Of a DNA stretch of 64,000 nt, positions 7,828 through 55,088 are shown piece after piece. Position 1 is the first letter of the stretch. Every line of letters begins with the position of its first letter. Made by a program: the position numbers and the translations under genes. The notes under the pieces are model-generated. The model saw only the letters and a program-made list of their open reading frames with translations, had not been told where the DNA came from and did not search any database. The DNA is from Klebsiella phage vB_KpM_FBKp24. The DNA is taken from the sequence record MW394391.1. One strand, 5' to 3'.

Positions 7828-8028
7828 TTAACGAACATCATTCCTCCTTTGGTTTAATTCTGTTCTGGTCGGTTTTTCAGCATCAATAGGCTCCAACCAA
7901 AAATGATTACATTCCCTACATTCCCAAGTTATTTCATTGTCTTCCTCATCGTAGACCTGAGAGCAATTCATAGCTTGACAAATAGGGCAATCTACCCCCG
8001 TCCATTGTATTGTCATGGTTTTACACAC
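7828..8028 (-). CDS. small zinc-ribbon protein (CPIC...CRECNHFW)
   Basis: Two CxxC pairs. GTG start in the ORF track, or an internal ATG. Confidence 0.45.
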   Translation of the reverse strand: MCKTMTIQWTGVDCPICQAMNCSQVYDEEDNEITWECRECNHFWLEPIDAEKPTRTELNQRRNDVR

Positions 8029-8513
8029 ATGTATTTGGTCTGCTCCAGGAAACCCTGAGACTCATAAAATTTCTGAGCAGAAGTATTGTAAAGGTGTACC
8101 GATAAACTAACCTGATCGATAGCTAGGTGTTTTGCGAACATCCTAACCTGATTCACTAATGCTTTACCATAACCGTTACGACGATAAAGGCGTTTAACGT
8201 AAAGATAACTAATCGACATCCAGTTAACGCTACCGTTAGCGATAGGCTGCGTATATTCAACAAACCCGACTACTTCTTCTTTATTTACCGCTAAGAGGAT
8301 ATTAGTCTGGTCCGTCCAACGATCGATCAGTCTTTCCGTTTTCTTCTCGTTGGTGAGAATATCTAGGTTACTCCGGGATTTCCAGAACGTGGCCTCTTTT
8401 TTATCCATGTCATGGAACATCTCTAAAAGTTCTTTTTCGTACTTGGCGGTTTCTGGGTCTTCTGGACCGAGTAATAAAACAAATTCCATTGGTTCTCTCC
8501 TGGTTGATGGCAT
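8013..8513 (-). CDS. GNAT family N-acetyltransferase
   Basis: GNAT motif A RRNGYGKALVNQV (R/QxxGxG/A acetyl-CoA binding), about 166 aa. Confidence 0.7.
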   Translation of the reverse strand: MPSTRREPMEFVLLLGPEDPETAKYEKELLEMFHDMDKKEATFWKSRSNLDILTNEKKTERLIDRWTDQTNILLAVNKEEVVGFVEYTQPIANGSVNWMSISYLYVKRLYRRNGYGKALVNQVRMFAKHLAIDQVSLSVHLYNTSAQKFYESQGFLEQTKYMCVKP

Positions 8514-9671: not shown

Positions 9672-9761
9672 TGGCAGAGAGTGAGAGATTTGAACTCTCG
9701 GTACCCTTTCGGATACATTCCCTTAGCAGGGGAACGACTTAAACCACTCATCCAACTCTCT
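9672..9761 (-). tRNA. tRNA-Ser (anticodon GCU), type II with long variable arm, CCA encoded
   Basis: Acceptor AGAGAGT/ACTCTCT, anticodon arm TTCCC-CTGCTAA-GGGAA, variable arm TGTATCCGAAAGGGTACC, T-arm GAGAG-TTCAAAT-CTCTC. Confidence 0.8.
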
Positions 9762-9769
9762 ATTAAAAT

Positions 9770-9844
9770 GCGACTCTTCCAGGACTTGAACCTGGGACCT
9801 ACAGCTTAACAGGCTGCCGTTCTAACCAACTGAACTAAAGAGTC
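9770..9844 (-). tRNA. tRNA-Asn (anticodon GUU)
   Basis: Acceptor GACTCTT/AAGAGTC (7/7), D-arm GTTC...GAAC, loop CTGTTAA, T-arm CCAGG-TTCAAGT-CCTGG. Confidence 0.85.
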
Positions 9845-9850
9845 ATTATT

Positions 9851-9925
9851 TGGCGGTGCTACGGAGAATCGAACTCCGGTCTCCTCCGTGACAGGGAGGT
9901 ATCCTTTCCGCTAGACGATAGCACC
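9851..9925 (-). tRNA. tRNA-Asp (anticodon GUC), CCA encoded
   Basis: Acceptor GGTGCTA/TAGCACC, anticodon arm CCTCC-CTGTCAC-GGAGG, T-loop TTCGATT. Confidence 0.8.
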
Positions 9926-9933
9926 TTTTTGTT

Positions 9934-10035
9934 TGGTTGTTCCCTTCCGGATTTGAACCGGCAACCTCCTGCTAAGCAGTGGGCGGCGCAGTGGCCGCCG
10001 GTGCAGGCGCTCTACCTAGTTGAGCTACGAGAACA
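9934..10035 (-). ncRNA. aberrant tRNA-like gene (about 102 nt) with a 23-nt GC hairpin insertion in the anticodon arm
   Basis: Canonical D-arm GCTC-AACTAGGTA-GAGC, T-loop TTCAAAT, terminal ACCA. Anticodon stem CCTGC...GCAGG is interrupted by ACCGGCGGCCACTGCGCCGCCCA before loop CTGCTTA. Confidence 0.4.
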
Positions 10036-10042
10036 TAGTATC

Positions 10043-10116
10043 TGGAGCAAGCAGCGAGGTTCGAACTAGGGGTACGGGGATCAAAGCCCCGGGCCTTAAC
10101 CGCTTGGCTATGCTCC
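10043..10116 (-). tRNA. tRNA-Gln (anticodon UUG)
   Basis: Good anticodon arm CGGGG-CTTTGAT-CCCCG and acceptor GGAGCA/TGCTCC. T-stem imperfect in my hand fold. Confidence 0.55.
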
Positions 10117-10124
10117 TATGCGTT

Positions 10125-10208
10125 TGGTGGGGAAGGGTAGATTCGAACTACCGAAGCCGAAGCAGCAGATTTACAGTCTGACCCATTTGACCACTCTGGA
10201 ACTTCCCC
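10125..10208 (-). tRNA. tRNA-Tyr (anticodon GUA), type II, CCA encoded
   Basis: Acceptor GGGGAAG/CTTCCCC, D-arm CCA...TGG, loop CTGTAAA, variable hairpin GCTTCGGC, T-arm GTAG-TTCGAAT-CTAC. Confidence 0.85.
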
Positions 10209-10391
10209 TGAATTTGGGGCCCGATTATTTCAGCGCTGCATTCTTTACTCTCGGGCCGAGGAGCACTATTAGTTTCTTCTCAGGGCGTATTGTTTTCCCT
10301 CTGAGACTTGCGCAATGTTTGAACAGGTTGATTGTTGTCTTAACATTCCGGAGAGAAAGTTACAATCTTTGTTCATAAGATATTGATTTAC

Positions 10392-10751
10392 TTAATTTTT
10401 GATCTGCACATCAGGATTCCCATTAACCGACAGCCAAATGTCGGCAACTAAAAGAATCTGTCCACCATACTGATTGACCTGCTGCCACCCATTCTTTTTA
10501 GCGGCAACTGTAATCATTGATAAAAATTGATTTTTCCAATGACTTTGATAAATCTGGGAATGATGAATTATTCGGCGGTTTTCAAACTTCTCGATGGTCT
10601 CAAATTCTTTCGTCGCGCTGATCATAGCAAAAACATCTTTAGACTTGATCAAATAAGCAGGGTCATTAATAGACCGATCGGAAGCTAAAGGAAGACGAGA
10701 AGAAATATGGTCAACGTCTTCTTGATTGTGTGCAAACGTTACGTCGTTCAT
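10392..10751 (-). CDS. hypothetical protein 119 aa embedded in the tRNA region
   Basis: ORF between two tRNA sub-clusters. Confidence 0.5.
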   Translation of the reverse strand: MNDVTFAHNQEDVDHISSRLPLASDRSINDPAYLIKSKDVFAMISATKEFETIEKFENRRIIHHSQIYQSHWKNQFLSMITVAAKKNGWQQVNQYGGQILLVADIWLSVNGNPDVQIKN

Positions 10752-10833
10752 TTTTACTTTTACCTTTTACAAGTTAGCGGTCTAAACCAAAATAGGAAGA
10801 CCAACAAAAACTGTGGGATGAATAATAATGAAG

Positions 10834-10907
<74 letters not shown>

Positions 10908-10912
10908 GTAGA

Positions 10913-10997
10913 TGGTGCCCAGGGCGGGGCTCGAACCCGCACGCGATAAAGCGAGGGATTTTAAATCCCTTGTGTCTGCCGATTTCACCACCTGGGC
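10913..10997 (-). tRNA. tRNA-Leu (anticodon UAA), type II, CCA encoded
   Basis: Acceptor GCCCAGG/CCTGGGC, anticodon arm AGGGA-TTTAAAA-TCCCT, long variable arm, T-arm CGGG-TTCGAGC-CCCG. Confidence 0.85.
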
Positions 10998-11002
10998 AAA
11001 TA

Positions 11003-11078
11003 TGGTGGGTCCAGCAGGTTTTGAACCTGCGACCAAGCGATTATGAGTCGCCTGCTCTAACCACTGAGCTATGGACCC
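11003..11078 (-). tRNA. tRNA-Met/Ile2 (anticodon CAU), CCA encoded
   Basis: Acceptor GGGTCCA/TGGACCC, D-arm GCTC-AGTGGTTA-GAGC, anticodon arm GGCGA-CTCATAA-TCGCT, T-arm GCAGG-TTCAAAA-CCTGC. Confidence 0.85.
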
Positions 11079-13976: not shown

Positions 13977-14078
13977 TTTATAATCTAGTGCTCTACCAGC
14001 TGAGCTATCTGCCTCCAAGAAACACTCTGTGAATGTGTCCTGGTAGGCAGAGCGGAATTCGAATCCGCGACCTCTAGA
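13977..14078 (-). ncRNA. circularly permuted tRNA-like gene: 3' half (nt 39-76 including CCA) encoded upstream of the 5' half (nt 1-38), 26-nt linker
   Basis: Minus strand reads TCTAG-AGGTC-GCGGA-TTCGAAT-TCCGC-TCTGCCT-A-CCA, then a 26-nt linker, then AGGCAGA-TA-GCTC-AGCTGGTA-GAGC-A-CTAGA-TTATAAA. Acceptor 7/7 and anticodon stem 5/5 complementary between halves. Confidence 0.5.
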
Positions 14079-14159
14079 ATTCTTTCCGTAAAAGAAAGAA
14101 AGTTCAGTCCGCTATTTTACTGTCTACTCTTTATCTTTAAGCGTGTGAGGCGATAAGAT

Positions 14160-23282: not shown

Positions 23283-24239
23283 TTAATCGGGTAACTTCTT
23301 AGTAAACTGGTAACGGAATAACTCCGTTTCAATAATGGGGAAGTAAGAACGATTCCGATATTCCAACAAAATCAGATTATGGTAAAATATCGCTTTCTTA
23401 AACTCCGCATCTGATTGTTTACTGGTACGAAATTGATACAGAGAAGGGCGATCGTTATACCCTCGACCCAAGGAAACAATCAGATTAATGAGCTTCTCTT
23501 GAGTGTCTATTCCGTCCAGAGATTCACAATGATCAAAATAGCTTTTATAAACATTATCAGACGGGTCTAAGACGAACCGATAGAAATTAAATCCCGAATG
23601 TCTAATGGTCAGTTGGTATTGTTCTGGACATTTAAAAACCTCTTGAACTGAAACTCCCGTAAGGAATTCTTCGTCTACTGAATCAGCATCAGTAGTGAGT
23701 AGCTCAACAACAGATTCTTCGGGTGATAAGGCTGCTAACTGACGATCCTTAGTCCCTTGAATATTAGCAATGACCGCCTCCAGTTCAGGGTCTTTTGGTC
23801 GTGCCAATAATCCCACATCGATACCAGCCCCAGAATGAATCCCTCCCCCTGTCTTTAACTCGAGAATCATATTTTTTATCTGCTGTCGTGAATACGTCGT
23901 TAATGTCGTATCATCGTAAAACAACTGCCTATGACAATATTCCGCTTCAGCAAAAGCGTTAAGTAAACCAATGAGAGCATTGATATTCTCCTCATTTTTG
24001 TCAGTAGCGTTGAACGGTGCTGATACCACGATATTAGGGCGAAAGAAAAGGTCGCCAGGTAACCGCACTAATGTCCCGCTATTCAGTCCATTGAACTGAA
24101 TACCTAACCGATCAAATCGGTTTATCCAAGGACACCCCTTGGCATTGGTCAATGCAATTCGGAGATTTTGTTCCGGGAAATAATGGTCTAATGTTTTACC
24201 GTCAGAGGTGTCTACGACCCGATACAGAACTTTTTTCAT
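23283..24239 (-). CDS. hypothetical protein 318 aa
   Basis: ORF only. Checked for ADP-ribosyltransferase R-S-E motifs and not found. Confidence 0.6.
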   Translation of the reverse strand: MKKVLYRVVDTSDGKTLDHYFPEQNLRIALTNAKGCPWINRFDRLGIQFNGLNSGTLVRLPGDLFFRPNIVVSAPFNATDKNEENINALIGLLNAFAEAEYCHRQLFYDDTTLTTYSRQQIKNMILELKTGGGIHSGAGIDVGLLARPKDPELEAVIANIQGTKDRQLAALSPEESVVELLTTDADSVDEEFLTGVSVQEVFKCPEQYQLTIRHSGFNFYRFVLDPSDNVYKSYFDHCESLDGIDTQEKLINLIVSLGRGYNDRPSLYQFRTSKQSDAEFKKAIFYHNLILLEYRNRSYFPIIETELFRYQFTKKLPD

Positions 24240-24499
24240 TTCCTATCTCCCCCACCCAAGTACTTCAAGTTAGCAACAAAACCGCTCTTGGCTAATGACG
24301 ACAAATCCTTCTGACCGATCAGACGAAGAAAGGTACGGTTAACTACCGCGTTAGCTCGTATACCTACCGGGAGTTTACCTATCTCCCGTAAAGCGAGTTT
24401 GATACGCGTACGGAACGTTTTACACAGATTTTCATCAAAACGTGCAATCGCCTTTACTTCTGCCTCAATGACTTTCATGTTCATTCTCTTTCTCCTCAA
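24236..24499 (-). CDS. hypothetical protein 87 aa
   Basis: Start overlaps the upstream gene's stop (ATGA). Confidence 0.45.
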   Translation of the reverse strand: MRRKRMNMKVIEAEVKAIARFDENLCKTFRTRIKLALREIGKLPVGIRANAVVNRTFLRLIGQKDLSSLAKSGFVANLKYLGGGDRK

Positions 24500-24509
24500 A
24501 TTACTGTTA

Positions 24510-24875
24510 TCAGTGTTTCGTTAATAAAGGTAAAAGTTCCTCTGGGAACTCTGCTAAGGGGCGTTTCTCGCCGTCACTTCTCATGGCCACGGGAAAACCT
24601 TGTTGACTATACCCCACTACCTTAACGAGACAAATACTTGAAACGTGCCCCGCTTCAAAAACGGTTCCGTTCTTCGCCAGCCAATACTCGATAATCGTTT
24701 TCTCAGTAAAGAAATCTTTAGCCGTTGTGAGAAAACACTCAGGCGCCTCCGTATGCGTTTTAAATACTACAAGGTAATATTTATCGATTAACAGCTGATC
24801 GATGCTTAGAGAGACGTTCAGAAACGATTCAGGTCGTTTTAACTGTGTCTCGGTAATGTCAATGGAAACTTTCAC
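24510..24875 (-). CDS. hypothetical protein 121 aa
   Basis: ORF only. Confidence 0.5.
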   Translation of the reverse strand: MKVSIDITETQLKRPESFLNVSLSIDQLLIDKYYLVVFKTHTEAPECFLTTAKDFFTEKTIIEYWLAKNGTVFEAGHVSSICLVKVVGYSQQGFPVAMRSDGEKRPLAEFPEELLPLLTKH

Positions 24876-24890: not shown

Positions 24891-25337
24891 TTAGAAATAC
24901 AAATGAATATCCACTAAAGATACCCCTAAAACCTCATCGGTCATACGACGAACCGTTACCGGGTCTAACTTCCCATTCCCGCACCCCAGATGCGACATCG
25001 CCAATGTATTAATCCCGTAACGTTCTATTGCTACGGCAATGTGTTCCAAACAGCTTTTAACCCATTCGTACCGAGAAGGGTAACGCCAATGGTCTTTAGT
25101 GGCGACGAGTAATAATTTCGTTCCATCTTTCGCGGTCGTGTACCAGCACATACCGGGTTTCCAATACCCTTTCCCGCATTGTTCTTTGTACTTAGAAAAC
25201 ACCTCAGGATGTCGTTGTTTGGCCTCCAGTGCAATGCCTGTACCCATCACCCCTACGCAGTTTACCGTTACGACCTTGACGGAATCTTCTACTTCGTCTT
25301 CGAATAGATTTCCTTTGCGTAATAATATTACCGCCAT
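24891..25337 (-). CDS. macro domain protein (Poa1p-like ADP-ribose / ADP-ribose-1''-phosphate processing)
   Basis: VVTVNCVGVMGTGIALEAKQRHPEVF matches the Poa1p-type macro signature (N..G.xGxGIA...YP). Also the C-terminal HLGCGNGKLD glycine-rich phosphate-binding loop. Confidence 0.55.
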   Translation of the reverse strand: MAVILLRKGNLFEDEVEDSVKVVTVNCVGVMGTGIALEAKQRHPEVFSKYKEQCGKGYWKPGMCWYTTAKDGTKLLLVATKDHWRYPSRYEWVKSCLEHIAVAIERYGINTLAMSHLGCGNGKLDPVTVRRMTDEVLGVSLVDIHLYF

Positions 25338-25814
25338 GTATTCTTCCCCTTACGCTTTCTGAAATTTTAGAGCATAAATCGCAGCCCTTTACGGACTACG
25401 CTAAATAAAAAATTATTTAATACATAAAAAATGATTGCCCTAAAAGAATAGGTCAACCCCGGGTAATCGGCAAGGATGTCGTTCGGTCCACACGTTCTCG
25501 CTCCGTTCCGTATCCTCTCCCTCTACGAGTGTGAGTCTACTACACTACTCTCGCTCGTGTTCCCCTCTCTCCTCTCTTCTTGCCGATTCCAATTTTGTTC
25601 ATAGAAATATAAGGAATAATTTTTTAAATTTCCAGAGAGGAATGGTAATGACTCTCTCTGAAATCTATCAGATTGAGTAAGCGATTTCTTTACAGGTTAA
25701 ATGTATTTTAACAGTAGAAATAAACTATGTTAAATTTCGATCAGAAATTTTCTCTACACTTACCGTAAGGTATAAGCTTCGCTGTTCGGTATATGTGAAT
25801 AGGCGGCGAGGTGT

Positions 25815-26279
25815 TTAGCGCGGGCGAGCGAGGCCGCTGGCGAGGAGTCGATGGCAATCCGCCAACAGCGATAAACGATAAGGTGTAAAGTTAGCTTCAG
25901 TCAATACACCGTTATCGATTAACCGTTGGAAGAAGATACCCGAGGCAAAATCCCAAGGACACCAAAATGTTTTCCGTTCATTTGCTAATGCTAATGCCTC
26001 AGTCACTAAACGCTGCGCGATTCCTGTACCACGTAGCGACTTCTTAACGTAGAGCATTGCCGTGTAGACAAAATTTCCGCCATTTCCATCTGGTATTAAG
26101 ACGCAAACCGCCTGATAGGTATTCTTCCCTTCCGGAGAATAGAATACCGCTTTACACGGCCATTCCCCAGTACGCTGCTCATAGATTCCCTCTAGCATTT
26201 TCCCTTTTAGTAGATACAGTTCATGCTCTAAACACAAACGGTAAATTTCATTAGACCCTTCAATAACACTGTAACCCAT
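25815..26279 (-). CDS. GNAT family N-acetyltransferase (second copy)
   Basis: Motif A RGTGIAQRLVTEAL, 154 aa. Confidence 0.7.
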   Translation of the reverse strand: MGYSVIEGSNEIYRLCLEHELYLLKGKMLEGIYEQRTGEWPCKAVFYSPEGKNTYQAVCVLIPDGNGGNFVYTAMLYVKKSLRGTGIAQRLVTEALALANERKTFWCPWDFASGIFFQRLIDNGVLTEANFTPYRLSLLADCHRLLASGLARPR

Positions 26280-26408: not shown

Positions 26409-26502
26409 TTCAAGTCCAATCGAAATTAGAGCTAATTCCTCCCTCAACATTGGCACAGACAGAGGAGAGGGGACTACCCTCTCCTCTGTTATGTTTTAAC
26501 GG

Positions 26503-28032: not shown

Positions 28033-28172
28033 AGGTGAATAGTTGAATCACGTAGATTCTGTCGTCTATTTATTGTAGGTGTCTATAGTAAATATCCCTT
28101 AAGTTTTTACTGATTGGCTAAATAGAGAACAAAAAAAAAAGAGGGGACGGTAGTCCCCTCTTTTCTGTACCC

Positions 28173-43964: not shown

Positions 43965-45866
43965 TTAACGGCCGAAACCGTAAGAAGCGCGAGAACGCGA
44001 ACGGAAACCACCGCCGTCGTAACCGTTAGACTCGTAGCGGGAAGTGTAACCACGACGAGACGTACGGTTGTCCTGAGAGATACCATCGGCGGTTACGACC
44101 ATACCAGCTTCGGACAGTGCGCGGGTCAGACCAAACAGCCAGTTGGCGTTCAGTTCAATCACGTCAGCACGGTCAGTGATCTGGTATTGACCACCGGTGT
44201 AGTCTTCGATGATTTTCTCGATCTGGTCCATACGGACAGCCAGATCAATGCCATCATCGTTCAGGCAGCGGTCGAAGTCGGCGACAACCTGCGGGGATTT
44301 CAGGCCGAAGTTGGTCAGGATTTCGTAGTAGCCGATTTCACGCAGGTCGCGTTTATGACCCTGTTCGTCAACCCAGGTACCGAGCATCTGCGGCATTTCG
44401 CGGATGATACCGACGTCGTACAGATCGTTGGTGTTCATGATCGCAGAGAAGCGCTTACCGGACACGTTATCTGCCGCATCGATCAGAAGATCGACCGCGT
44501 CTTTACGGTTCGGGTTGCTCATGTCGCAGGCATCCAGCAGCAGGTTCAGCATCGGCGTTACGATAGAGGTGCGCGGCACCTGAATCTGAACGATTTGGCT
44601 GTTTTCGCGGATGACGTTAGACACCAGATCGGCCCACTGGCTGTCGCTCAGAACTTCCGGTAATTTATCGAACTCGCCTTTCAGTTCGTAGGTCAGCGCA
44701 TCCGCAGTACGGAGCGCGCCTTTACCGGCGATCGGACGAAGACCCTGAATCAGTACCGGCTCAGTCATCAGTGCAGAGACCTGCGCCAGAGAGAACATCA
44801 GGTATTCCGGGATCGGGTGACATTTCAGCTCGCTGATAACCAGAGCGGCGCCATAGATACGGGTATCTTGGTCTTCCGGTTTTTTGCTACGGGAAGTGAA
44901 GAAGCTGTTGCTCGGCTCTTCTTCGCCTTTGTAGTACAGATCGACATGGCTAACAATGCCCGCCAGCTGAGTGGACTCACGCTCGGAAAGAACGTTAACC
45001 ATACCGCCACGACGTTCGTCACGCGGAGCGACCATCAGATCAACGACGATATCTGCGCGGTGCGGCAGGTCAGTGATGTCGTCAGCGATGTCGCCCTGGT
45101 GGAACGCGATGTTCGCCAGCAGATCGTTGTTTTTCAGGTCCAGTGCTGCAATGCTGAATTCGTTCGTGTTCAGCAGGCCGTTAACCGTATAGATGATCTG
45201 GTTGAATACCGCGCTGGCGATAGTTTCCAGTTCACTGTCGGTCGGTTTATCGTTCAGGATCGGAGAAGCAGCCAGATGCTGTACCGGACCTTTGAACGCC
45301 GGGTTGGACGCTTCGATCAGTGCGTCGAGAGAGTCTTTGTAACCCTCAGCTTCGTACTGGTCGTTTGCCGTAGTGGTGTAACGCACGGTCAGATCGCGGC
45401 TAACGGTTACGGCCTGTTTCGGCATGACGGTATTACCAACGAAGATTACGGTAGAAGCGAACACTTCACCGGTATCTTTCATGCGCGCTGCAATAACGGC
45501 CGCGTCCAGTTTCATCTGGGTTTCTTTGCCGATGGCCGGGGTTACGGTCCATTCTACCGCGCCGTTCAGGCTCAGGGCGGCGGCGTGTTGTTTCTGAATT
45601 TCTTTCGCCAGTTCGACGAATTTTGCTACGTCGCCTGCCGCAGAATTGAGAGACAGTACCGGCGCGTCTTTACGGAAGTTATAAGTAGAATTCACTTTTC
45701 TCTCCTGAGTGTTGGAAGAATCTTGGTTGGTGGTAGAACGGTTATAAGTACGGCGACGCTGATTCTGATCGCTACCGGCAGATTCGTTACCTGCGGTGTT
45801 ACGCGCTTCAGCTGCTTCAACAACGGTGTCTTTTTCTTGGTTGTGATCGTCATCACGTAAAGCCAT
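43965..45866 (-). CDS. chmA: probable chimallin (ChmA) phage-nucleus shell protein, 633 aa
   Basis: About 70 kDa size typical of ChmA. Disordered N-terminal ~60 aa, strongly optimised codon usage (very high expression), strong SD (GGAG), the early-type promoter motif upstream, and PhuZ plus split msRNAP genes nearby. Assigned by context, not by a remembered alignment. Confidence 0.6.
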   Translation of the reverse strand: MALRDDDHNQEKDTVVEAAEARNTAGNESAGSDQNQRRRTYNRSTTNQDSSNTQERKVNSTYNFRKDAPVLSLNSAAGDVAKFVELAKEIQKQHAAALSLNGAVEWTVTPAIGKETQMKLDAAVIAARMKDTGEVFASTVIFVGNTVMPKQAVTVSRDLTVRYTTTANDQYEAEGYKDSLDALIEASNPAFKGPVQHLAASPILNDKPTDSELETIASAVFNQIIYTVNGLLNTNEFSIAALDLKNNDLLANIAFHQGDIADDITDLPHRADIVVDLMVAPRDERRGGMVNVLSERESTQLAGIVSHVDLYYKGEEEPSNSFFTSRSKKPEDQDTRIYGAALVISELKCHPIPEYLMFSLAQVSALMTEPVLIQGLRPIAGKGALRTADALTYELKGEFDKLPEVLSDSQWADLVSNVIRENSQIVQIQVPRTSIVTPMLNLLLDACDMSNPNRKDAVDLLIDAADNVSGKRFSAIMNTNDLYDVGIIREMPQMLGTWVDEQGHKRDLREIGYYEILTNFGLKSPQVVADFDRCLNDDGIDLAVRMDQIEKIIEDYTGGQYQITDRADVIELNANWLFGLTRALSEAGMVVTADGISQDNRTSRRGYTSRYESNGYDGGGFRSRSRASYGFGR

Positions 45867-54119: not shown

Positions 54120-55088
54120 TTAGAATTCCATTCCATCGCCTTGCGTGTCACCCTGAATAAAGCTCTGCACTGCGACTGACTTTTTATCCCTTGCCATCCG
54201 GCGTTGTTCAAAGTCGTCGTAGGTTTTACGGAGGTCCGTCAGAATTTCATTCAAACCGTGAGTATGGATGAGGAAGTAAAGGGAATCTTCCCCTGACCGT
54301 TTACGTGAACCGTAGGTGTTGTAGTCAGCAGGAATAGTCCCGGTTGTGGGTTTATTGTCACCGTAAAGTTCCGCAACTGAGATGGGGGCGGTTACCTCCA
54401 ATGCGTCTTCTCGGTCCTGGAAAACTTCCAACAGTCCCAGCTCCGGTCGTACGCCTGCGCCAATCACTGGGCGTGCCCAAGTGAGGACGTCTGCTGAATC
54501 GAGACCGTGGTGTTTACCTGAATAGAGATCGAGGACTGCGCGAATGGTGGCAATCATAATCGCATCGACTTCTGCATTACGAACGTTGTTTTCGTTACTT
54601 TCAAACGCCACGTTCGCAAACTGATTGTTTTTGATCGCGATATTACGAATAGACGAAATAGTCTTCATCGTGTTTTCGGTTGTTTTCGCCGATTCGGTAG
54701 ATCCCACTAAAAAGACCAGAACGGCTTTCCCTTGGGCGTAGAGCCCCTCGATGAGTTTAGGGCCAATTACGGAGCCCGATCCACCGGACGCTGAAAAGAT
54801 CAGGATGTTCAGTTCTGAAGGTTTGAGTTTCAGAAGAATGTCGCTGATACTACGATCGGTAACGTCATAGTTAGTTTTACGGATTTTACCCGCGCCATCA
54901 ACCCCTTCCAGAAAATACCATTTATCTTGATCGACAACGGTGCGCTCAGAAACATTAGAACGGCTACCGTCAACGTAAGCCTCTCTTACGTTTGCCAGAT
55001 CCGATAGATCAGTACGCATCAGCTTGGTGAGGATGTCAATTCCCGCCCCGCCGGCACCGTAGATAGTTACTGTGTTATTCGACGACAT
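54120..55088 (-). CDS. phuZ: PhuZ phage tubulin/FtsZ-family GTPase
   Basis: VTIYGAGGAGIDILTKL (nucleotide-binding N-terminus), the tubulin signature SASGGSGSVIGPKL (compare PhuZ SLGGGSGSVLGP), VGSTES, about 320 aa. Strong AAGGAG RBS. Confidence 0.8.
   Translation of the reverse strand: MSSNNTVTIYGAGGAGIDILTKLMRTDLSDLANVREAYVDGSRSNVSERTVVDQDKWYFLEGVDGAGKIRKTNYDVTDRSISDILLKLKPSELNILIFSASGGSGSVIGPKLIEGLYAQGKAVLVFLVGSTESAKTTENTMKTISSIRNIAIKNNQFANVAFESNENNVRNAEVDAIMIATIRAVLDLYSGKHHGLDSADVLTWARPVIGAGVRPELGLLEVFQDREDALEVTAPISVAELYGDNKPTTGTIPADYNTYGSRKRSGEDSLYFLIHTHGLNEILTDLRKTYDDFEQRRMARDKKSVAVQSFIQGDTQGDGMEF

What the first reader, a model, noticed from the sequence alone, without database searches (positions are those of the whole stretch)
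24891..25337. Poa1p-type macro domain protein (ADP-ribose processing), a candidate counter-defence enzyme
VVTVNCVGVMGTGIALEAKQRHPEVF fits the Poa1p-like macro signature, and a glycine-rich HLGCGNGKLD loop lies near the C-terminus. Macro domains remove or process ADP-ribose marks. In a phage this could reverse host ADP-ribosylation-based defence (DarT-like DNA ADP-ribosylation, ART toxins) or act on NAD-derived immune signals. I found no partner ADP-ribosyltransferase in the neighbourhood (23283-24239 was examined and rejected).
Basis: partly seen in the sequence, partly recalled or inferred. Interest (0 to 1): 0.55.

Follow-up and report, generated by a model that had tools for sequence, protein, structure and literature searches.

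The report
Phage DarG-like macrodomain, likely anti-DarT enzyme
This gene of a nucleus-forming jumbo Klebsiella phage encodes a small stand-alone enzyme that most likely strips ADP-ribose marks, placed by the bacterial DarT defence toxin, off the phage DNA. A 2026 paper proved this counter-defence for the related PhiKZ protein AdfM, so the find is real but no longer surprising.

Summary
The ORF is real: 24891..25337, minus strand, 148 aa, with both quoted motifs present. It is a macrodomain (Pfam E 7.8e-10; AF2 pLDDT 93.8). Its closest relatives are DarG antitoxin macrodomains, not Poa1p: NCBIfam DarG E 4.6e-37, PADLOC DarG E 6.5e-38, and PDB DarG structures at TM 0.91. Poa1p scores only E 0.005 and Foldseek rank 18. 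The DarG residues for ADP-ribose binding and catalysis are kept (N26, T80, K81, W84, G118-C-G-N-G122).

The protein lacks DarG's C-terminal DarT-binding half, and no DarT-like gene lies in the window. Of the 80 closest bacterial loci, 53 carry a DarT-like gene immediately upstream of the macro gene.

The window is a chimallivirus. It encodes chimallin, a PhuZ-like tubulin and split RNA polymerase subunits, is 98.7% identical to Klebsiella phage Centimanus, and the protein is 100% identical to one in phage FBKp24. Chimallivirus DarG2-like macrodomains were characterised in 2026 as AdfM (PhiKZ gp104), which removes DarT2 ADP-ribose from DNA. This protein is 33% identical to AdfM and keeps its catalytic N and K.

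Verdict: an untested, divergent member of a known counter-defence family. Interest is low to moderate.

The parts
24891..25337 (-). Macrodomain gene: 148 aa, a stand-alone DarG2-like (AdfM-like) ADP-ribosyl glycohydrolase.
   Evidence: ORF; Pfam Macro; NCBIfam and PADLOC DarG; AF2 pLDDT 93.8; Foldseek best hits are DarG macrodomains at TM 0.91; 33% identity, E 2e-23, to PhiKZ AdfM.
25343..25351 (-). Shine-Dalgarno sequence AAGGGGAAG, 5 nt before the ATG.
   Evidence: Read directly from the sequence.
25260..25262 (-). Codon for N26. It is equivalent to T. aquaticus DarG N22 and PhiKZ AdfM N23, whose mutation lowers activity.
   Evidence: Residue mapping; invariant in 23 homologues; mutant data in PMC5179494 and PMC13309987.
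25086..25100 (-). Codons for T80-K81-D82-H83-W84. K81 is the catalytic lysine (Taq DarG K80, AdfM K78, TARG1 K84). W84 matches DarG W83, proposed to stack on the modified thymine.
   Evidence: PMC5179494.
24972..24986 (-). Codons for G118-C-G-N-G122, the diphosphate-binding loop (Taq DarG G117-G121). A glycine occupies the position of TARG1 D125.
25365..25633 (-). Conserved non-coding element upstream of the gene, probably the promoter and structured 5' leader of the transcription unit. Its link to macro function is not shown.
   Evidence: 85% identical over 269 nt in relatives whose macro protein is only 63% identical; stems with three both-sided changes.
25815..26279 (-). Upstream neighbour, a GNAT acetyltransferase. 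It is also found next to the macro gene in Serratia phage Moabite. This is context only; no functional link is shown.
   Evidence: Pfam Acetyltransf_1 E 1.6e-5; synteny.
23283..24875 (-). Three co-oriented, tightly spaced downstream ORFs (24510-24875, 24236-24499, 23283-24239). They have no recognisable family and are conserved only in close relatives.
   Evidence: the AF2 model of the 318-aa ORF has pLDDT 39.
43965..45866 (-). Chimallin, the phage-nucleus shell protein. It marks the genome as a chimallivirus.
   Evidence: PF25677 E 1.9e-18, above cutoff; phrog_4795 'nuclear shell protein' E 4.3e-44.
54120..55088 (-). PhuZ-like phage tubulin, a second chimallivirus hallmark.
   Evidence: TubZ_C_2 and Tubulin Pfam hits, both below their curated cutoffs.

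Best explanation
The gene encodes a stand-alone DarG2-type macrodomain, an 'orphan antitoxin' of the AdfM kind. Host DarT2 toxins of DarTG2 defence systems use NAD+ to attach ADP-ribose to thymidines in single-stranded phage DNA, which blocks replication and packaging. The phage enzyme binds the ADP-ribose through its N26 region and its G118-G122 loop. The catalytic lysine K81 then cleaves the ribose-thymine bond, with W84 positioned to stack on the base, releasing ADP-ribose and restoring the DNA. The protein has only the catalytic half of DarG, so it should act purely enzymatically and not by sequestering DarT. Because the phage is a chimallivirus, the enzyme is probably imported into the phage nucleus where the DNA replicates.

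Shown here: the gene, the fold, DarG-subfamily membership, conservation of the catalytic residues, the missing C-terminal domain and missing toxin gene, the chimallivirus context, and homology to AdfM. Inferred: the substrate, the defence system countered, and the localisation.
For: - Family: NCBIfam DarG E 4.6e-37, covering profile positions 3-146 of 338. PADLOC DarG E 6.5e-38.
- Structure: best PDB sequence hits are the M. tuberculosis and T. aquaticus DarG macrodomains. The AF2 model (pLDDT 93.8) superposes on them at TM 0.91 and rmsd 1.8-1.9 A, ahead of TARG1 and far ahead of Poa1p.
- Residues: 13 of the 15 T. aquaticus DarG positions compared (11 ADP-ribose-contacting residues plus K29, K80, H82 and W83) are identical or conservative. 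These include N22->N26, K80->K81 and W83->W84, with Gly at the TARG1 D125 position. N26, T80, K81, W84, G118, G120 and G122 are invariant in 23 homologues.
- Bacterial relatives: 53 of the 80 closest loci have a DarT (DUF4433)-like ORF immediately upstream or fused. Plasmid homologues sit next to annotated DarT/DUF4433 genes.
- Sufficiency of the domain: the macrodomain alone acts as an antitoxin for T. aquaticus DarT (PMC5179494).
- Chimallivirus context: chimallin, PhuZ-like tubulin, split RNAP beta subunits and a divergent DNA polymerase are in the window.
- AdfM link: PhiKZ gp104 is a chimallivirus DarG2-like macrodomain that removes DarT2 ADP-ribose from DNA, rescues DarT2 toxicity and is needed on DarTG2 hosts (PMC13309987). 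The window protein is 33% identical to it, E 2e-23. Each is the only homologue found in the other's kind of genome.
- Host: the DarT-macro operon is reported in Klebsiella pneumoniae (PMC5179494).
Against: - No biochemical or genetic data exist for this protein or for any member of its clade.
- It is as similar to bacterial DarG (34%) as to PhiKZ AdfM (33%).
- In a neighbour-joining tree its clade (FBKp24-like plus Moabite) does not group with the PhiKZ or Erwinia AdfM clades. The backbone supports are 1-31%, so orthology is unproven and an independent acquisition with different specificity remains possible.
- Taq K29, whose K29E mutant is impaired, is T33 here, and Q34 is E38. PhiKZ AdfM also lacks K29 (it has A30) and is active.
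- The gene's position differs from that of AdfM in PhiKZ and the Erwinia phages.
- Macrodomains of this class (TARG1) also act on protein and RNA substrates.
- I did not verify that DarTG2 occurs in this phage's actual host strains.
Confidence: 0.72

Rival explanations
1. It is a TARG1-like eraser of protein or RNA ADP-ribosylation. It would counter other ART-based defences such as mRNA-modifying toxins, or reset modifications made by the phage's own transferases, and would not act on DNA.
For: TARG1 is the next-best structural relative (TM 0.83-0.86) and shares the catalytic lysine. ARTs occur in over 40% of jumbo phages, and RNA ADP-ribosylating defences are known (PMC9503650; PMC11825919 discussion).
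Against: TARG1's second catalytic residue D125 is a glycine here, as in DarG, and the DarG-specific Trp (W84, where TARG1 has Ala) is present. DarG profiles score about 30 orders of magnitude better than TARG1. The closest cellular relatives are mostly in darT-darG operons. No ART was seen in the 64-kb window, although the other ~240 kb of the genome was not scanned.
Confidence: 0.13
2. It is a small-molecule ADP-ribose processing enzyme. It would be a Poa1p-like ADP-ribose-1''-phosphate phosphatase or an O-acetyl-ADP-ribose deacetylase, or a degrader of NAD-derived immune signals. This matches the 'phosphatase' and 'Appr-1-p processing' database labels.
For: PHROG 335 is labelled 'phosphatase', and many phage homologues are annotated 'Appr-1-p processing'. 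Poa1p is a detectable distant relative. A GNAT acetyltransferase is the conserved upstream neighbour in two phage lineages.
Against: The Poa1p match is weak and partial: E 0.005 over residues 4-78, and Foldseek rank 18. The labels are inherited annotation, not experiments. The lysine/Trp active site is the glycohydrolase type of DarG. The GNAT linkage is absent from the PhiKZ, Erwinia and Salmonella lineages, and in the window it is interrupted by 477 nt, with an extra gene in relatives.
Confidence: 0.08
3. It is a non-catalytic ADP-ribose reader, or a decaying remnant with no current role.
For: The gene is accessory, since only about half of chimalliviruses have one (PMC13309987).
Against: All catalytic and ligand-binding residues are intact and invariant across homologues down to 35% identity. 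The ORF is intact with a strong RBS and has the same GC content as the genome.
Confidence: 0.04

Closest known systems
AdfM (anti-DarT factor macro), PhiKZ gp104, with PhiPA3 gp108, Goslar gp83 and Asesino gp217 (Morgan et al., Cell Rep 2026, PMC13309987)
   Same: Both are stand-alone ~150-160 aa DarG2-like macrodomains encoded by chimalliviruses. The same catalytic Asn and Lys are kept (AdfM N23/K78, here N26/K81). Neither has a DarT-binding domain or an adjacent toxin gene. Each is the single copy in its genome, and the two find each other by BLAST.
   Different: Identity is only 33%. The window protein sits in a separate, well-supported clade (FBKp24-like plus Moabite) whose relation to the PhiKZ clade is unresolved. 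Its genomic position differs: here it follows RNAP-beta, helicase and GNAT, whereas in PhiKZ it follows virion structural genes. It lacks the ~9-residue insertion before the GxGNG loop. Its pI is basic, 8.25 against 5.05. Activity, nuclear import and phenotype are untested.
DarG (DarG2) antitoxin of the DarTG2 toxin-antitoxin and phage-defence system (PDB 5M3E, 5M31, 5M3I; NCBIfam NF048014)
   Same: It is the best sequence and structure match: 32-34% identity, TM 0.91. It has the same ADP-ribose pocket, catalytic Lys, Trp and GxGNG loop.
   Different: The phage protein has only the N-terminal macro half, matching 148 of ~340 residues. It scores 128 bits, below the 250-bit equivalog cutoff. It has no cognate darT, and it is encoded by a virus, so it is an orphan enzyme and not a TA antitoxin.
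AdfN (T4 gp30.3), a phage orphan DarG1-like NADAR (PMC11825919)
   Same: The strategy is the same: a phage carries the enzymatic antitoxin domain alone to erase DarT marks from its own DNA.
   Different: AdfN has an unrelated fold (NADAR, not macro). It acts on guanosine-linked ADP-ribose made by DarT1, not on thymidine-linked ADP-ribose made by DarT2.
Human TARG1/OARD1 and yeast Poa1p
   Same: They share the macrodomain class. TARG1 shares the catalytic lysine.
   Different: TARG1's D125 is Gly here, and TARG1 has Ala where this protein has W84. Poa1p is a distant match only, and it is a phosphatase of ADPr-1''-phosphate.

Membership tests
Macro domain superfamily (Pfam PF01661) | Profile match above the curated gathering score | tested here: met
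   39.2 bits against a cutoff of 22, E 7.8e-10, covering profile positions 2-116 of 118.
Macro domain superfamily (Pfam PF01661) | Three-layer alpha/beta/alpha macro fold | tested here: met
   AF2 pLDDT 93.8 and pTM 0.88, with a six-strand, four-helix order. Of the 50 listed Foldseek PDB hits, 42 are natural macrodomains and 8 are designed or evolved serine hydrolases (OSH55 series, ranks 15, 22, 23, 25, 26, 32, 35 and 44) whose fold I did not check.
DarG-type (DarG2) macrodomain subfamily | Closest by sequence and structure to DarG macrodomains, ahead of other macro classes | tested here: met
   NCBIfam DarG E 4.6e-37; PADLOC DarG E 6.5e-38; PDB DarG E 5e-20 against TARG1 2e-4 and Poa1p 5e-3; TM 0.91 against 0.85 and 0.81.
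DarG-type (DarG2) macrodomain subfamily | Catalytic Lys (Taq K80) and Asn (N22), Trp (W83), and the GxGNG loop with Gly at the TARG1 D125 position | tested here: met
   K81, N26, W84 and G118-C-G-N-G122 are present and invariant among 23 homologues.
DarG-type (DarG2) macrodomain subfamily | Hydrolysis of thymidine-linked ADP-ribose on ssDNA | not testable with these tools
   This needs a biochemical assay.
DarG antitoxin of a DarTG2 TA system (NCBIfam NF048014 equivalog) | Full-length match above the equivalog cutoff, including the C-terminal DarT-interacting domain | tested here: not met
   128 bits against a cutoff of 250. Only profile positions 3-146 of 338 are matched, and the protein ends at residue 148 (PADLOC 2-143 of 329).
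DarG antitoxin of a DarTG2 TA system (NCBIfam NF048014 equivalog) | Adjacent cognate darT (DUF4433) gene | tested here: not met
   A DarT profile built from bacterial loci finds nothing in the window or in 16 phage loci at E<=1. The flanking ORFs are a GNAT and ORFans.
AdfM (chimallivirus anti-DarT factor macro) | Encoded by a chimallivirus (nucleus-forming jumbo phage) | tested here: met
   Chimallin at 43965-45866; PhuZ-like tubulin; split RNAP beta subunits and divDNApol; 98.7% identity to the 300-kb Klebsiella phage Centimanus.
AdfM (chimallivirus anti-DarT factor macro) | Stand-alone macro protein homologous to PhiKZ gp104 (the paper's criterion was PSI-BLAST from gp104), with the conserved N23 and K78 | tested here: met
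   BLASTP 33% identity, E 2e-23. A gp104 tblastn search retrieves the close relatives KpLz-2_45 and LPKP23, and finds one place per genome. N26 and K81 are aligned.
AdfM (chimallivirus anti-DarT factor macro) | Common descent (monophyly) with PhiKZ gp104 to the exclusion of bacterial DarG | tested here: inconclusive
   In the NJ tree with 100 bootstraps, the subclades are strong (100%, 100%, 99%) but the backbone supports are 1-31%. Gene position is not conserved between lineages.
AdfM (chimallivirus anti-DarT factor macro) | PicA-dependent import into the phage nucleus, and protection of the phage from DarTG2 | not testable with these tools
   This needs microscopy and phage genetics. It has been shown only for PhiKZ, PhiPA3 and Asesino (PMC13309987).
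Poa1p-type macro (ADP-ribose-1''-phosphate phosphatase) | Closest relationship to Poa1p | tested here: not met
   phmmer E 0.005-0.012 over residues 4-78 only; Foldseek rank 18 and below, TM 0.75-0.86, 18-20% identity.
TARG1/OARD1 | Catalytic pair Lys84 and Asp125 | tested here: not met
   The Lys is present (K81), but the Asp125 position is G122.

The most novel reading that the evidence does not exclude
The FBKp24/Moabite-lineage macrodomain could be an independent capture of a DarG-like enzyme and not an AdfM orthologue. In that case it might have a different or broader substrate range, for example other DNA, RNA or protein ADP-ribose linkages made by Enterobacterales defence toxins. It might also work together with the syntenic GNAT, and be controlled by the unusually conserved structured leader upstream.
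Probability: 0.1. Interest if true: 0.45.

Novelty: new member of a known kind. Interest (0 to 1): 0.25.

Why it matters
If the assignment is right, this Klebsiella jumbo phage, and its therapeutic-candidate relatives FBKp24, Centimanus and the KpLz/LPKP23 group, should be intrinsically resistant to DarTG2 defence. That is useful for predicting host range. It would also extend the 'phage nucleus plus enzymatic eraser' layered counter-defence, so far shown in Pseudomonas and Erwinia chimalliviruses, to Klebsiella phages. Finally, it shows that the database labels in use ('phosphatase', 'Appr-1-p processing', and even 'ADP-ribosyltransferase' in Streptomyces phages) hide a defined anti-defence function. 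It does not open a new question, because the mechanism and family were published in 2026.

Tried and rejected
- Partner transferase. I looked for an ART or DarT near the gene. Pfam, PHROG and PADLOC scans of the seven flanking ORFs found none. Pfam scans of 30 more window ORFs of 150 aa or more found none. A DarT profile built from bacterial loci found none. It has only 3 homologues in 5.8 billion proteins and no family hit. Its AF2 model has pLDDT 39, which is unusable, so I ran no fold search. It remains uninformative.\n- GNAT-macro functional module. The GNAT neighbour is homologous and adjacent only in the FBKp24-like and Moabite-like phages. It is absent next to the macro gene in the PhiKZ, Phabio, Noxifer, RAY-like and Phobos loci. 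The Salmonella SPLA3 'acetyltransferase' nearby is not detectably homologous. I treat this as synteny by descent, not as evidence of a two-enzyme system.\n- Orthology with PhiKZ AdfM. The NJ bootstrap tree has an unresolved backbone. No ML tool was available.\n- Upstream conserved element. No credible Rfam family matched; the SNORA27 and pan hits are far below gathering. The MFE z-score is only -1.2. Only two sequence variants exist, so covariation cannot be assessed.\n- Literature. A search for 'FBKp24' found nothing. The AdfM paper's supplementary list of homologues is not held, so I could not check whether this phage was already listed there.

Full report
**The observation**

The finding's coordinates are exact. 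An ATG-to-TAA ORF of 148 codons occupies 24891..25337 on the minus strand. An AAGGGGAAG Shine-Dalgarno sequence lies 5 nt upstream. The gene's GC content (0.456) matches the window's (0.444), so there is no sign of recent foreign origin.

**What the protein is**

- Pfam assigns it to Macro (PF01661) above the gathering score, E 7.8e-10.
- More specific libraries point to one subfamily. NCBIfam's DarG antitoxin model gives E 4.6e-37 and PADLOC's DarG model gives E 6.5e-38. Both match only the N-terminal ~145 positions of their ~330-position profiles.
- Among solved structures, the best sequence matches are the DarG macrodomains of M. tuberculosis (E 5e-20) and T. aquaticus (E 2e-18). The T. africanus DarTG fusion comes next, then human TARG1 (2e-4), and only then yeast Poa1p (5e-3, N-terminal half only).
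- I built an alignment of 23 homologues and obtained an AlphaFold2 model with mean pLDDT 93.8.
- Foldseek against the PDB ranks the three DarG macrodomain entries first (TM 0.90-0.91, rmsd 1.8-2.2 A). TARG1 follows at TM ~0.85, and Poa1p is at rank 18.
The subfamily is DarG-type, not Poa1p-type.

**Active site**

I mapped the residues that contact ADP-ribose or matter for catalysis in T. aquaticus DarG, as listed in PMC5179494. The mapping gives:

| T. aquaticus DarG | This protein |
|---|---|
| N8 | N10 |
| L9 | L11 |
| T20 | T24 |
| N22 | N26 |
| V31 | I35 |
| T79 | T80 |
| K80 | K81 |
| H82 | H83 |
| W83 | W84 |
| G117, G119, N120, G121 | G118, G120, N121, G122 |

- Only K29 (here T33) and Q34 (here E38) differ. 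The experimentally active PhiKZ AdfM also lacks K29 (it has A30).
- The position of TARG1's second catalytic residue D125 is a glycine, as in DarG. The DarG-specific tryptophan, proposed to stack on the modified thymine, is present.
- N26, T80, K81, W84, G118, G120 and G122 are invariant across homologues down to 35% identity.
- The sequence gives every reason to expect an active glycohydrolase.

**What it is not**

- The protein ends where the DarG macrodomain ends. It lacks the C-terminal DarT-interacting domain and so falls below the NCBIfam equivalog cutoff (128 against 250 bits).
- There is no toxin gene. A DarT profile that I built from bacterial loci finds nothing in the 64-kb window or in 16 related phage loci.
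- No ART family appears among 47 window ORFs of 150 aa or more scanned against Pfam.
- It is therefore an orphan catalytic antitoxin domain, not a toxin-antitoxin component.

**Cellular relatives**

- A profile search of 1.84 billion representatives finds 22,135 relatives at E<=1e-3. Many are ~340-350 aa with the macrodomain at the N-terminus, the DarG architecture.
- Of the 80 closest loci in bacterial and archaeal genomes (35-47% identity), 53 carry a DarT-like ORF immediately upstream on the same strand or fused. For 48 of these the hit has E<1e-20. Another 17 loci have weaker DarT-like hits within 2.5 kb.
- Plasmid homologues likewise sit beside genes annotated DUF4433 or 'DarT ssDNA thymidine ADP-ribosyltransferase'.
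- The nearest cellular relatives of the phage protein are thus bona fide DarG2 antitoxins.

**Genomic context**

- The window is 98.7% identical to Klebsiella phage vB_KpM_Centimanus, a 300-kb genome. The protein is 100% identical to the 'macro domain containing protein' of Klebsiella phage vB_KpM_FBKp24.
- The window encodes chimallin (43965-45866; PF25677 E 1.9e-18; phrog 'nuclear shell protein' E 4.3e-44). It also encodes a PhuZ-like tubulin (54120-55088), several split RNA-polymerase beta-type subunits and the divergent family-B polymerase. It is a chimallivirus.
- The local gene order is RNAP-beta, UvsW-like helicase, GNAT, a 477-nt gap, the macro gene, then three small or medium ORFans, all on the minus strand.

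**Comparison with the literature**

- Morgan et al. (Cell Rep 2026, PMC13309987) showed that PhiKZ gp104, a chimallivirus DarG2-like macrodomain they named AdfM, has four properties. It is imported into the phage nucleus. It removes DarT2-installed ADP-ribose from a TNTC oligonucleotide, and the N23A mutant is impaired. It rescues DarT2 toxicity in E. coli. It is required for PhiKZ and PhiPA3 to grow on DarTG2-bearing hosts.
- They found homologues in about half of chimalliviruses.
- The window protein is 33% identical to gp104 (E 2e-23) and keeps the equivalents of N23 and K78.
- A gp104 query retrieves this phage's relatives, and the window protein retrieves PhiKZ-like phages. In both directions there is one place per genome.
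- The general idea that phage macrodomains counter ADP-ribosylating defences is older: 56% of jumbo phages carry a macrodomain (PMC9503650).
- The parallel NADAR case, AdfN against DarTG1, is established (PMC11825919).
- The DarT-macro operon is reported in K. pneumoniae (PMC5179494).

**How confident is membership in AdfM?**

- The functional criteria, activity and nuclear import, cannot be tested here.
- Evolutionary membership is unresolved. In a neighbour-joining tree of 47 macrodomains, the window protein sits in a 100%-supported clade with FBKp24-like and metagenomic sequences, joined by Serratia phage Moabite at 62%.
- The PhiKZ/Phabio/Noxifer clade (100%) and the Erwinia/Salmonella clade (99%) are separate. 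The backbone joining all of these to bacterial DarG has supports of 1-31%.
- Gene position also differs between lineages.
- The protein is as similar to bacterial DarG as to PhiKZ AdfM. Repeated capture of DarG macrodomains by chimalliviruses is as compatible with the data as a single ancestral acquisition.
- This lowers the claim 'orthologue of gp104'. It does not lower the claim 'works like AdfM'.

**Most likely mechanism (confidence about 0.72)**

During infection of a DarTG2-bearing Klebsiella, DarT2 ADP-ribosylates thymidines in single-stranded regions of phage DNA. The phage macrodomain, probably concentrated in the phage nucleus, binds the ADP-ribose and uses K81 to cleave the ribose-base bond. 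This restores replicable and packageable DNA. Lacking the DarT-binding domain, it acts only as an eraser.

The rivals are:
- TARG1-like protein or RNA de-ADP-ribosylation (about 0.13).
- Small-molecule ADP-ribose processing, as the 'phosphatase' label implies (about 0.08).
- A non-catalytic role (about 0.04).

They are disfavoured by the DarG-specific active-site signature, the score gap and the DarT linkage of the nearest relatives.

**Side observations**

- The 477-nt gap upstream of the macro gene contains a 269-nt element (25365-25633, minus strand). It is 85% identical in the KpLz/KpYy/LPKP23 phage group, although the adjacent macro protein is only 63% identical.
- It is the only part of the 4-kb neighbourhood besides one other short piece that megablast aligns to the LPKP23-type phages.
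- RNAalifold predicts a long-range 12-bp closing stem, a small hairpin, and an 8-bp hairpin just before the RBS. Three pairs are changed on both sides. Only two sequence variants exist, the MFE z-score is -1.2, and no Rfam family matches.
- In the relatives the element precedes an extra 226-aa gene that the window lacks. It is therefore more likely the promoter and leader of the transcription unit than something specific to the macro gene.
- The GNAT-macro adjacency recurs in Moabite-type phages, where the two genes overlap, but not elsewhere.

**Verdict**

The protein is a new, untested and fairly divergent member of a known, recently characterised counter-defence family. Interest is low to moderate (0.25).

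Noticed in passing
window 25365-25633 (minus strand), within the 25338-25814 intergenic gap: This non-coding element is 85% identical over 269 nt (core ~95%) to the KpYy_2_45, KpLz and LPKP23 phages, whose flanking macro protein is only 63% identical. The predicted structure has a long-range 12-bp stem plus two hairpins, with three both-sided pair changes. A 20-codon ORF (MNKIGIGKKRGERGTRARVV) stays open in both variants. There is no Rfam family, the element is unique in the window, and it is confined to 11 Klebsiella jumbo-phage records.
   Followed up: partly
window 25815-26279 (-); L002:3547-4038 (Moabite): A GNAT acetyltransferase lies immediately upstream of the macro gene in the FBKp24-like phages and in Serratia phage Moabite, where the two genes overlap by 38 nt. 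The order RNAP-beta, helicase, GNAT, macro is conserved in both. The GNAT is not found next to the macro gene in the PhiKZ, Erwinia or Noxifer lineages. A second, stronger GNAT is at window 8013-8513.
   Followed up: partly
L016:2786-3466 (LPKP23) and the equivalent region in L004 (KpYy_2_45): These relatives carry an extra 226-aa gene between the conserved leader element and the macro gene, which the window and Centimanus lack. Its only hit is a sub-threshold match to Pfam pNTSase1, 'predicted novel nucleotide synthetase' (E 0.004).
   Followed up: partly
window 23283-24239 (-): This 318-aa ORF overlaps the stop of the preceding ORF by 4 nt. Only 3 homologues exist in 5.8 billion proteins, all from this phage group. 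The C-terminal ~110 residues are almost invariant. It has no family hit, and the AF2 model is unusable (pLDDT 39).
   Followed up: partly
window 14041-14125 (-) and the tRNA cluster at 9672-11078 (-): ARAGORN calls a 'tRNA-Stop' with anticodon TTA, which is also annotated in Centimanus. Rfam's tRNA model does not report it at gathering. Conversely, Rfam reports a 97-nt tRNA-like match at 9938-10034 (38 bits) that ARAGORN lacks, while ARAGORN's tRNA-Gln at 10043-10117 is missing from the Rfam list.
   Followed up: no
phage database records: Annotation of this family is inconsistent. PHROG 335 and many records say 'phosphatase' or 'Appr-1-p processing'. Streptomyces and Microbacterium phage records (Kela, Frankenweenie, Pumpernickel) label the macro eraser as 'ADP-ribosyltransferase', the opposite activity.
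   Followed up: no
window 26458-26490 and 28135-28166: Two strong 14-bp GC-rich hairpins with T-runs share a GAGGGGACTACC core. One lies between the helicase and the GNAT, the other between RNAP-beta and the helicase. They are terminator-like punctuation of the minus-strand gene block, and terminator-like sites are about twice the shuffled expectation in this region (11 against 5.0).
   Followed up: no
protein P0024 (sequence): The top hit of the representative search is a 435-aa protein with two tandem DarG-like macrodomains followed by a basic tail. This architecture was not seen among the phage homologues examined.
   Followed up: no
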